The position numbers were made by a program, and so were the translations under genes. The notes under the pieces are model-generated. The model had not been told where the DNA came from. It ran no database searches and saw only the letters and a program-made list of their open reading frames with translations. This document shows positions 13,524 to 31,288 of a DNA stretch of 64,000 bases, piece by piece. The first letter of the stretch is position 1. Each line of letters begins with the position of its first letter. Where the stretch lies: positions 29,264,001-29,328,000 of the forward strand of contig CM022665.1 in NCBI GenBank assembly GCA_012295275.1. The letters run 5' to 3'. This stretch comes from Chrysomallon squamiferum. Taxonomy: Eukaryota > Animalia > Mollusca.

Positions 13524-16500
13524 ATGGCTAAAGTAGCTGTTTCCAGTAAAGGGATTCTTTTGAAGATTTCTAATTTAAATTTCAAGATATATTTAACGAA
13601 AAGTTTTTCTAATATCAAAGATGGTAAGGATGTACACAAAATGTAAGGATGTGTCCGATATTTCTTTTTCATTTGTTTGCTTCGTAGCACTGGTATGGGT
13701 AAACTAAAATTAATAAACTGTAAAGTAACGGCAGTCGGATTGATTGTTTAATTCAAAATAAATTAATGAATAAAAAATATAATAATGATAATAATTACAA
13801 TAATATACAATAACAACAATATACGTCAGAGAAGTTTTAGCTCCATAAAATAAATACAGTGGTTATAATATATTATATGAAGTGAAAGAAAAGAATAATA
13901 AATAAAAAATAGGTGTGTTCCCGAAGTAGAGGAACACGGCCTTATGTGTTATAAAGACCACGAGGGTCCCATCCGTCCTTGTCAAGGGGAGTGCTTTTTT
14001 TTTTTTTTTTTATATCTTTATTAGTATAATCACCAGTTGTACACAATTAAAATAACATTACAGCTGTAAATAACAATAACAAAAAACTATTTCCTCTCAC
14101 ACACTCAGTCAGACTCATTCACACTCACATGCATGCATACTTATTTATTCGGAATATTCATATATATTTACAGTATTTTATAGTATTAATTCTTTTATCC
14201 ATTTCCATGGTTTATCTATATTGATTATTTGTAGTTTTCCAAAGGATATTTGAAAATAAGTATGTCATCTTTTAGTTCTAGGAAAATATTGTTCTTAACA
14301 TATTTGTTAATAAAAATTGAAAGTTTGTTTTGAATACGATATTGATTTAGAATGATTTTAAAGCACTGATACATATAATTTCTAAAAAAATGTATTATAT
14401 TGATATTTGTTCCTTTCATTTGAGCTATTACACGCCTTTTGAACACTGTTATTCTATAAATTGAAAGAATAATATTAATAAATTCTATTGTACTATTTTC
14501 AATTTTGAGATAACATCCAAATATTAATAATCTTTTTAATTGTTCTAGAGAAAACCCTGTTTTCTTAAATATATAAATACATATTTCATGAAAGATTGAT
14601 ATTAATTCCTTCAATTCTTCACAATACAAAAATAAATGGCACAAATCTTCATCATCCTTCAAACACACTGGACATACACTAGATGAGATTTTACCATATT
14701 TATATAATTTGTTATATGTATATATTATATGATGAACTATTCTAAAATCTAAGTCTATAAATTCAGTAAATTTATCACTATAGTGTATCCATTTCCAAAC
14801 TGGTCTCCAGAATATATTAAAACCAAGCTCATTCCATTTTACTTCACAAGTTGGTGCTATAAAGTTTTTTAAAATTAAAATAGAATAAATTATTTTAGCT
14901 GTAAATTTATTGACATTTATCATTTCATTATTCTGAAACAAAAATAAATCTTTATTAGAAGTTAATTTTTTAGCATTTCTGTTAATAGAACTTTTCCATT
15001 CATCTGGAAGTGATTTCTTAATAACATTGTAAGCTATATAAATTTGGTTTTTGGATAATTCTGGAGATTTTTCATGAATAAGTTCTACAATAGCTGTAAA
15101 AGGAAGAAAACCTGGTATTATTTCATAAGCAATATCAGCCACTTTGACTATTCCACTTTTTATAAAAGAACTAAATAATAATAATTTGTTTTTATATTTA
15201 ATGAATGGATTTTGAAAAAGTGGCTGAGACAATATTTCATCTGTATCAAGTGGGAAATTACGTTCTCCATTATTAACATAGTCCCAAGCTGATAATATTT
15301 CAGCATAAAAAGGATTAATAACTTTTAAAGCTTCTTTACTGTATACTATTTTAAAAATGTCATAATTTAGATTCATATTCATATATTTTTCAAGAAATAT
15401 TGACATTGTTTATTTCCACACATTTTTAAAATTATTATCAAAATATTTCTTTAACATTTTTATTCGAAAAGCCATTTTCTTTAATGAAATATCTTGAATA
15501 TTTAGTCCACCCGACATTTTATTTCCAATTATTGTTGAATATTTTATTAAAGATGTTTTCCCTTCCCACATAAATTTACAAAATAATTTATGAATTTCAT
15601 TTTCTACCCAATTTGGTACATTTATTGTGCTAATGATATACCACAGTCTAGATGTTAATAAAGTAGTCCATACTTCAGCTTTTCCGTGCAAAGTAAGTTT
15701 CCTTTGACTCCATAAGTTAATTAGATTAGACATTTTAGCTAATTTATTTTTCCAGTTCAAAGTTTCACATAATAGTTTATTTGGTCCTAAATATATACCT
15801 AGAATTTTTAACATAGTTTTTATTTATTGATATTGGAATGTTAAAGGATAAGTTTTCAATCATGGTTTTACCAAGATAAAGTACTTCTGACTTATCTACA
15901 TTGACTTTTGCCCCTGTAGCACTACAATACATATTTATTGTATTAAAACATTTTCTACTGACTGAGCATCACAGACAGTTACTGTAGTATCATCTGCATG
16001 CTGAAATAATAAAGAATTAAGTTCATTTGTTATCCTAATTCCATTCATGCTATGTCTTTTTTTAATTAAATTATTTAAGGGTTCAGCTACAATAACATAA
16101 AGCATCATTGATATTGGACATCCTTGTCTAACCCCTCTTGTAATATTGAAAAAAGGTGTTAAATGTCCATTAATTTTACACAACTTTTAATATTATTATA
16201 TAGTATTTTAATCCACTTTATAAAATTATCACCAAAATTGAATTTTTCAAAACTTTTAAAATAAAACTATGTGATACTCTATCAAATGCTTTCTCTTGAT
16301 CTATTTTAACTATATACCCTTCTGTATTATTTAACTCGACAATATCTATAATATCTCTTACTGACATAATATTGTCAGCAACATCTCTTCCTTTTACACA
16401 ACAGGTTTGTTCTGATGAAATAATAGTTGACATTACTTGTTTAAGACGATTTGCAAGAACTTTTTAGCAATAATTTTATAATCTACATTTAAAAGGCTGA

Positions 16501-31288: not shown

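What the first reader, a model, noticed from the sequence alone, without database searches (positions are those of the whole stretch)
13761..29626. Tx1-clade LINE inserted into the U6atac snRNA gene with an apparent ~234-bp target-site duplication that leaves an intact gene
Seen, reading the minus strand: promoter, complete U6atac (29626-29511), ~140 bp of flank, LINE 5' end (29367), then LINE poly(A) (13995), U6atac nt 27 to end, and the same flank (to 13761). Both repeat boundaries coincide to the base with the LINE termini, which is the signature of target-primed reverse transcription. Established: L1/Tx1 TSDs are usually ~7-20 bp. Tx1 families target multicopy RNA genes (Keno on U2, Mutsu on 5S), and rotifer R9 makes a long (~126-bp) TSD. 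I know of no element targeting U6atac, which is normally a low-copy essential gene. Inference: a first nick inside the snRNA and a second cut beyond its terminator would let the element hit an essential Pol III gene without destroying it.
Basis: partly seen in the sequence, partly recalled or inferred. Interest (0 to 1): 0.88.

Follow-up and report, generated by a model that had tools for sequence, protein, structure and literature searches.

The report
tRNA-targeting LINE hit look-alike U6atac
A jumping gene whose closest relatives sit inside tRNA genes has its ends joined to the U6atac splicing-RNA gene at an 11-base tRNA look-alike site, and it likely spared the gene by copying about 234 bases of it, but the assembly has a gap between the two ends, so this is probably a one-off survivor and not a proven U6atac-targeting strategy.

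Summary
The U6atac gene, the 233/234-bp repeat and its ends at LINE termini are real. But what lies between is not one LINE: it is a full copy (29367-24000) whose tail runs into a different, multicopy repeat, then 5 kb of unrelated DNA, a 200-N gap, and a second copy (18756-13995) that ends in U6atac. The flanks belong together (CSKMT exons 1 and 2 splice into one open frame), but no molecule seen here links the two junctions. The family has roughly 20-40 copies (weak depth hint). Six of its 7 nearest relatives have a junction in or just behind a tRNA gene, and all 3 readable 3' junctions fall at the same D-loop position. The U6atac site matches tRNA-Gln there for 11 bases in register (2 of 20,000 shuffles). 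Best reading (0.6): a tRNA-gene-targeting Tx1-like LINE nicked a mimic site; an atypical far 5' join duplicated 234 bp and left an intact gene, so the allele survived; the assembler then misjoined copies. A U6atac-specific family is not supported.

The parts
29508..29626 (-). Complete U6atac snRNA gene with T9 terminator, antisense within CSKMT intron 1
   Evidence: Rfam RF00619 92.5 bits, model 1-126
29627..29700 (-). Upstream promoter region, TATA about 31 nt before +1 (function inferred)
29368..29600 (-). Upstream copy of the repeat (U6atac nt 27 to end plus 140 nt of flank), 233 bp
29356..29367 (-). 12 nt at the 5' junction that differ from the family 5' end seen in run X1; no second match with up to 2 mismatches in the window
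   Evidence: (loose end at 29355)
24000..29367 (-). LINE copy A, 5,368 bp, A8 tail
28122..29282 (-). ORF1, 386 aa, CCHC zinc knuckle
   Evidence: Pfam zf-CCHC E 1.9e-7
24218..28121 (-). ORF2 (APE endonuclease, RT, C-terminal zinc region), in pieces by small indels, most in homopolymers
18957..23999 (.). 5,043 bp not from the CSKMT locus by any evidence here; begins with a B-box motif (23967, -) in a repeat that is multicopy over the first kb laid; probably the 3' flank of another LINE copy
   Evidence: no tRNA call by Rfam or ARAGORN
18757..18956 (.). Assembly gap, 200 N
13995..18756 (-). LINE copy B, 5' end cut by the gap, A17 tail
13761..13994 (-). Downstream copy of the repeat (U6atac nt 27 to end plus flank), 234 bp
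13491..13623 (+). CSKMT exon 1 (predicted)
   Evidence: GT donor, phase 1, splices in frame; alone only 21 of 2,000 shuffles score as well
30648..31288 (+). CSKMT exon 2
   Evidence: 63% to a named CSKMT-like protein of Gigantopelta aegis

Best explanation
The element is an L1-group (likely Tx1-clade) LINE from a lineage whose nearest relatives sit in tRNA genes at one D-loop position, and it likely nicked U6atac because the gene matches tRNA-Gln for 11 bases at that position; an inferred atypical 5' join about 234 bp downstream would have left an intact gene upstream. Shown: the junctions, the 11-nt match in register, the relatives' sites. Inferred: first nick at U6atac nt 25-27 primes reverse transcription on the tail; beyond the 11 bases U6atac no longer resembles the tRNA, the usual near join (7-18 bp on) fails, and host repair joins the cDNA far downstream, replacing about 12 terminal nt. 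A normal short duplication would have destroyed a low-copy gene, so only a long one survives to be seen (selection, not strategy). The assembly then entered the LINE from the U6atac 5' junction and left by another copy's 3' flank, while the other contig stopped inside the LINE; a scaffolder joined them with 200 N.
For: Repeat ends sit at LINE ends, 1 indel in 234 bp. CSKMT exons on either side of the gap splice into one 257-aa frame. RT tree: window is sister to L084 (SH-aLRT 91) inside a set where 6 of 7 relatives have a tRNA junction (98 for the inner 6 rows, 82 for all 8; 5 of 5). 3 of 3 readable 3' junctions begin at the same tRNA position: L084 nt 22, L003 model 21, L005 model 20-21. U6atac nt 22-32 = tRNA-Gln nt 17-27, nt 27 = tRNA nt 22; 2 of 20,000 shuffles; the word occurs once in the window, 0.007 expected. 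Contigs with the two ends in different RNA genes recur in this group: L003 (Lys/Tyr), L010 (His array/5S). Copies A and B show 0 clean substitutions in the 5' 934 bp of their overlap against 13 in the 3' 2,936 bp (Poisson P 0.016-0.08), as a mosaic copy A would. APE LINEs have little specificity for the second cut (PMC6895275, passage), and many TSDs over 20 bp were seen for L1 in one HeLa line (PMC4245944, section 8).
Against: No read or contig seen here links the two junctions; neither U6atac junction appeared in the truncated tables. The one relative with both ends on one contig (L084) has a 10-bp deletion, not a duplication. The mosaic signal is weak and may come from polishing. The family's own 3' junctions seen so far (copy A; 2 contigs of run X3) lie in a B-box repeat that Rfam does not score as tRNA, so tRNA-Gln as this family's target is inferred from relatives and from a 7-nt match of one loose end that could be the element's own 5' end. 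L081, the second-nearest relative, shows no tRNA at its 5' flank. L001's tRNA half is weak (E 0.34, boundary chosen by me).
Confidence: 0.6

Rival explanations
1. The long duplication is real and so is the composite as assembled: after the insertion, recombination with another copy brought in LINE-5 kb-LINE.
For: It is what the assembly shows; A has private changes, among them a 5-bp insertion at 25120, where B agrees with the runs.
Against: The gap falls exactly where B meets foreign DNA; collapse of a 5.4-kb, 20-40-copy repeat is the simpler cause; error-like homopolymer indels point to noisy long reads.
Confidence: 0.1
2. There is no long TSD: the two contigs come from two haplotypes, one with an ordinary insertion in U6atac (null allele) and one with a separate insertion 140 nt downstream of the gene.
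For: The junctions are on different contigs; the repeat copies differ by one indel and A and B by 31 substitutions.
Against: Needs two hits by one family within 234 bp of a single locus in one animal; the downstream point is AT-rich with no tRNA-like motif; 0 clean substitutions between A and B over the 934 bp nearest the 5' junction.
Confidence: 0.13
3. The lineage makes long duplications as a regular trait, regenerating intact Pol III genes upstream of the insertion.
For: L004 (53% identical) has its 5' junction 7 nt past a complete tRNA-Gln gene, about 57 bp from the usual nick.
Against: 4 of 5 relatives with a 5' junction at a tRNA have it inside the 5' half (nt 10, 27, 33, 38). L004's 3' end is off the contig, so its duplication is not shown.
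Confidence: 0.12
4. The 5' junction is an assembly chimera between an empty allele and a LINE 5' end from elsewhere.
For: The last 70 nt of the repeat are low-complexity, and the right contig is probably misjoined once already. The repeat region has single-copy-like depth in 4 of 4 runs laid (0.83-1.11 of baseline; weak).
Against: No foreign overlap exists at the join beyond 12 nt; a chance chimera would rarely land on a LINE 5' end. The runs differ from both window copies at 16 of 19 listed sites, so they are probably other animals.
Confidence: 0.05

Closest known systems
Tx1-clade small-RNA-gene LINEs: Keno (U2), Mutsu (5S), Dewa (tRNA-Leu spacer) (PMC4494074 passages and section 15; PMC3706591 passages; Kojima and Fujiwara 2004 not read)
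   Same: APE-RT LINE with zinc-knuckle ORF1 and poly(A), one nick position in multicopy RNA genes; 5S-junction elements are the neighbours in my trees.
   Different: Nick lies inside tRNA genes at the D-loop/A-box end across several isoacceptors (Asp, Tyr, Thr at 3' junctions; Gln, Lys at 5' junctions), not in a spacer; one copy in U6atac.
Dada DNA transposons (Dada-U6, Dada-tA/tL/tY etc.; PMC3706591, PMC8869645, passages)
   Same: Insert inside tRNA genes (A box, anticodon) and U6/U1; targets of related families share primary sequence across tRNA and snRNA genes, the same kind of mimicry.
   Different: DDE transposons with 6-7-bp TSDs; U6atac has 0 occurrences in PMC8869645.
RLE-type tRNA-gene LINEs NeSL-1_TV, LIN15_SM, LIN25_SM (PMC4640811, passage)
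   Same: Non-LTR elements specific for tRNA genes.
   Different: Restriction-like endonuclease, different clade.
R9 of bdelloid rotifers (126-bp stagger; cited through PMC6895275, original not read)
   Same: Very long duplication at an RNA-gene target.
   Different: RLE element in rDNA with a family-wide long TSD; here one case, unproven, in an APE family whose relatives show -10 to +18 bp.
Long TSDs of human L1 in cultured cells (PMC4245944, section 8)
   Same: Occasional duplications over 20 bp by an APE LINE.
   Different: Untargeted; Gilbert 2005 itself was not held.
U6/L1 chimeras (PMC6789731, listing and start of abstract)
   Same: A U6-class snRNA sequence 5' of a LINE.
   Different: Here the snRNA is the native gene with promoter and 140 nt of genomic flank past its terminator, which a Pol III transcript would lack.

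Membership tests
L1 group / Tx1 clade | ORF1 with CCHC zinc knuckle | tested here: met
L1 group / Tx1 clade | ORF2 with N-terminal APE, RT and C-terminal zinc region; poly(A) tail | tested here: met
L1 group / Tx1 clade | RT closest to L1-group proteins | tested here: met
   73%-identical intact relative P0001 vs PDB: human L1 ORF2p E 5e-88, R2 E 2e-15
L1 group / Tx1 clade | RT groups with named Tx1 families (Tx1L, Keno, Mutsu, Dewa) | not testable with these tools
   No named Tx1 sequence came from any call; only unnamed 5S-junction neighbours. 'Tx1' rests on anatomy and recall.
tRNA-gene-targeting lineage (this report) | 3' junctions at one tRNA position in relatives | tested here: met
   3 of 3 readable in the clade
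tRNA-gene-targeting lineage (this report) | The window's own family inserts in tRNA genes | tested here: inconclusive
   3' ends seen lie in a B-box repeat not scored as tRNA; one 5' loose end matches tRNA-Gln nt 28-34
U6atac-specific retrotransposon | Most copies flanked by U6atac | tested here: not met
   About 20-40 copies against single-copy-like depth of the U6atac flank (weak); copy A and run X3 contigs end in another repeat
True 234-bp TSD | Both junctions on one molecule | not testable with these tools
   Gap between them; only short contigs were available
True 234-bp TSD | Empty allele holds one copy of the repeat | tested here: inconclusive
   Depth 0.83-1.11 of baseline in 4 of 4 runs; contig depth is no copy number
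R9-like fixed long TSD | Long duplication in most insertions | tested here: not met
   Relatives: -10 (shown), about +7, +13, +18, +57 (inferred); own family not measured
U6/L1-type chimera | snRNA ends at its 3' end and joins the LINE, away from its promoter | tested here: not met

The most novel reading that the evidence does not exclude
A widespread marine-animal Tx1-like lineage nicks tRNA genes at the D-loop and, in a fraction of events, joins its 5' end beyond the Pol III terminator, rebuilding a complete gene upstream; this lets it colonise even single-copy essential Pol III genes such as U6atac that mimic the tRNA site (window: 234 bp; L004: about 57 bp).
Probability: 0.15. Interest if true: 0.8.

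Novelty: new variant of a known kind. Interest (0 to 1): 0.5.

Why it matters
It gives a natural case of how target-specific LINEs reach new targets: sequence mimicry between a tRNA D-loop and an snRNA. It also points to an APE-type lineage that inserts inside tRNA genes at one position across isoacceptors, which I did not find in the papers listed (Repbase and the Tx1 tree and supplements of PMC4494074 could not be seen, so it may be catalogued there). If the 234-bp duplication holds, it shows that the second-strand join is loose enough to rescue an essential gene, a testable point in the open question of how LINEs finish integration. As it stands it is one insertion across an assembly gap.

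Tried and rejected
No whole genome is held, so other copies could not be harvested. Run contigs were laid on 23000-29560 only; the 5' part of the snRNA gene and the left junction were not examined in reads, and the tables were cut (1,021 loose ends, 42 joints not shown), so absence of the U6atac junctions there means nothing. Joints 23815-29387, 24481-29376 and 24887-29382 have 21-24-nt AT-rich sides: rejected as chance. Rfam and ARAGORN do not call copy A's 3' flank a tRNA. Viral contigs: 0 of 33 candidates were relatives. The five genomes behind L081-L085 held no further close copy. A templated origin for the 12 extra 5' nt was not found. My first exon-2 start was one base off and gave stops; corrected. 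One search's tree left out 7 of 80 loci (single match under 330 aa) and was the quick method; one search used 25 of 86 loci chosen by me. Earlier-scan look-ups by sequence and place gave nothing. Searches for U6atac as an insertion target (listings only) showed only U6/U6atac chimera and pseudogene papers. U6/L1 chimera and a species-wide tandem U6atac duplication were considered and rejected (no flank in a Pol III transcript; single-copy-like depth, weak).

Full report
Observation. On the minus strand the window holds a complete U6atac gene (29626-29508, Rfam 92.5 bits) with a TATA at about -31. U6atac nt 27 to end plus 140 nt of flank occurs twice, 29600-29368 and 13994-13761, identical except for one base in the terminator T-run. 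The left copy follows a LINE poly(A); the right copy precedes a LINE 5' end.

The 15.4 kb between the repeats is not one element. It is copy A (29367-24000, full length, A8 tail), 5,043 bp of other DNA, a 200-N gap (18757-18956) and copy B (18756-13995, cut by the gap, A17 tail). Copy A's tail joins a B-box-bearing sequence, not U6atac. A and B differ by 31 substitutions and 32 indels, most indels in homopolymers or dinucleotide runs, which suggests noisy long reads (inference). So the 5' and 3' U6atac junctions lie on different contigs. The contigs do belong to one locus: a predicted exon 1 (13491-13623) and exon 2 (30648-31288) splice into a 257-aa CSKMT that aligns to a 256-aa Gigantopelta aegis protein; the empty intron would be about 1,418 bp.

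The element. ORF1 (386 aa) has a CCHC knuckle; ORF2 has APE, RT and a C-terminal zinc region. An intact 73%-identical relative matches human L1 ORF2p best among solved structures. Named relatives come from molluscs, echinoderms, a coral and fish. No named Tx1 protein was returned, so 'Tx1' rests on anatomy, on 5S-junction neighbours and on recall.

Public runs. Nine runs of one organism label from 3 studies hold the stretch; 4 were laid, as contigs, on 23000-29560. Near-identical LINE contigs have 21-40 times the depth of divergent single-locus-like contigs, while the repeat region (position 29468) has 0.83-1.11 times. The tool warns that contig depth is no copy number, so this is a weak hint of about 20-40 copies and of no duplication in those animals. 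They are probably not the sequenced animal: at 16 of 19 listed sites in the LINE both window copies differ from the runs. Two contigs of run X3 end the LINE in a variant of the same B-box repeat as copy A, and that repeat is multicopy over the kilobase laid.

Relatives and their targets. A metagenome scan gave 80 loci and a genome scan 6 (animal DNA inside bacterial bins). In RT trees the window groups with L084 and L081, then L001, L002, L004, then L003, L005 (quick method, SH-aLRT 82-99); the sister group holds a 5S-inserted element. Six of these 7 have a tRNA junction; L081 shows none in its 5' flank and lacks its 3' end. All 3 readable 3' junctions start at the same D-loop position: L084 in a tRNA-Asp array at nt 22, L003 at model position 21, L005 at 20-21. 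The 5' junctions lie after tRNA nt 10 (L084), 27 (L001, weak), 33 (L002) and 38 (L003), or 7 nt past a complete tRNA-Gln (L004). Only L084 has both ends in one array: a 10-bp deletion. The others imply about +7, +13, +18 and +57 bp if the nick is the usual one. L003 and L010 have their two ends in different RNA genes, the same pattern as copy A.

Why U6atac. U6atac nt 22-32 is identical to nt 17-27 of L004's tRNA-Gln, and the first duplicated base (nt 27) corresponds to tRNA nt 22, the same register as the relatives' junctions. Two of 20,000 shuffles of the gene gave such a match with any of 5 tRNAs; the word occurs once in the window, 0.007 expected. The match ends 5 bases past the nick.

Mechanism. 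Shown: junction sequences, mimicry, relatives' sites. Inferred: the endonuclease nicked the mimic, reverse transcription started on the tail, and the 5' end, lacking its usual nearby partner sequence, was joined 234 bp downstream with about 12 terminal nt replaced. APE LINEs are reported to have little specificity for the second cut (PMC6895275, passage), and long TSDs and extra 5' nucleotides occur (PMC4245944, passages and section 8). A short duplication would split a gene that is normally low-copy and needed for minor-intron splicing (my knowledge), so long ones are what selection leaves. The assembly structure is best read as a misjoin between copies: A and B have 0 clean substitutions in the 934 bp nearest the 5' junction and 13 in the 3' 2,936 bp (P 0.016, or 0.08 without clustered changes). 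I put this whole reading at 0.6, a real long duplication by any route at about 0.8, and no TSD at about 0.2.

Against. No linking molecule; the nearest fully visible relative has a deletion; the family's own target is a B-box repeat that Rfam does not score as tRNA; the 7-nt tRNA-Gln match of X1's 5' end may be the element's own terminus, since L004's element starts with a similar word away from the tRNA.

Comparison and novelty. Tx1 targets in the passages read are U2, U5, 5S, microsatellites, satellites, transposons and the tRNA-Leu spacer (PMC4494074 passages and section 15; PMC3706591 passages). Insertion inside tRNA genes is described for RLE LINEs (PMC4640811, passage) and Dada transposons, which also share target sequence between tRNA and U6 families (PMC8869645, passages). 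Dictyostelium TRE5-A lands about 50 bp upstream of tRNA genes (abstract starts only). I found no APE LINE inside tRNA D-loops and no U6atac target in the listings; Repbase, Kojima and Fujiwara 2004, and the figure and supplements of PMC4494074 were not seen and may hold the former. Earlier AI notes of this scan report Tx1-like LINEs in tRNA-derived SINE heads in other genomes; unchecked leads. Verdict: new variant of a known kind, interest 0.5.

Noticed in passing
L004:424-520: A close relative's 5' end lies 7 nt past a complete tRNA-Gln in a tandem Gln array; a possible second gene-sparing long duplication, 3' end off the contig.
   Followed up: partly
L084 (also L081, L082): Contigs in bacterial genome bins (Spirochaetia, Flavobacteriaceae, Micavibrio) carry animal LINEs and a eukaryote-like tRNA-Asp tandem array: host contamination of those bins.
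   Followed up: partly
window 28459-28492: Contigs of runs X1, X3 and X9 carry a 34-nt back-step plus 20 letters in ORF1 (54 nt, in frame) that both window copies lack.
   Followed up: no
window 26942-27817: Depth 2-4 times higher and 15 clean A/B substitutions in 876 bp: a second related family or derivative probably shares this part.
   Followed up: no
window 23000-23999: Multicopy repeat of at least 1 kb beginning with a B-box motif; a main 3' landing site of this family, identity unknown.
   Followed up: partly
L008, L009, L010, L016, L036 and L013: Two separate groups of 5S-inserted LINEs with different 3' junction positions; L010's 5' end lies in a tRNA-His array.
   Followed up: partly
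window 22199-22619: Degenerate 12-bp tandem array giving spurious ORFs.
   Followed up: no
window 10886-11839 (+), 38155-38955 (-), 41437-42237 (-): Exon-like ORFs of 265-317 aa with no Pfam match.
   Followed up: no
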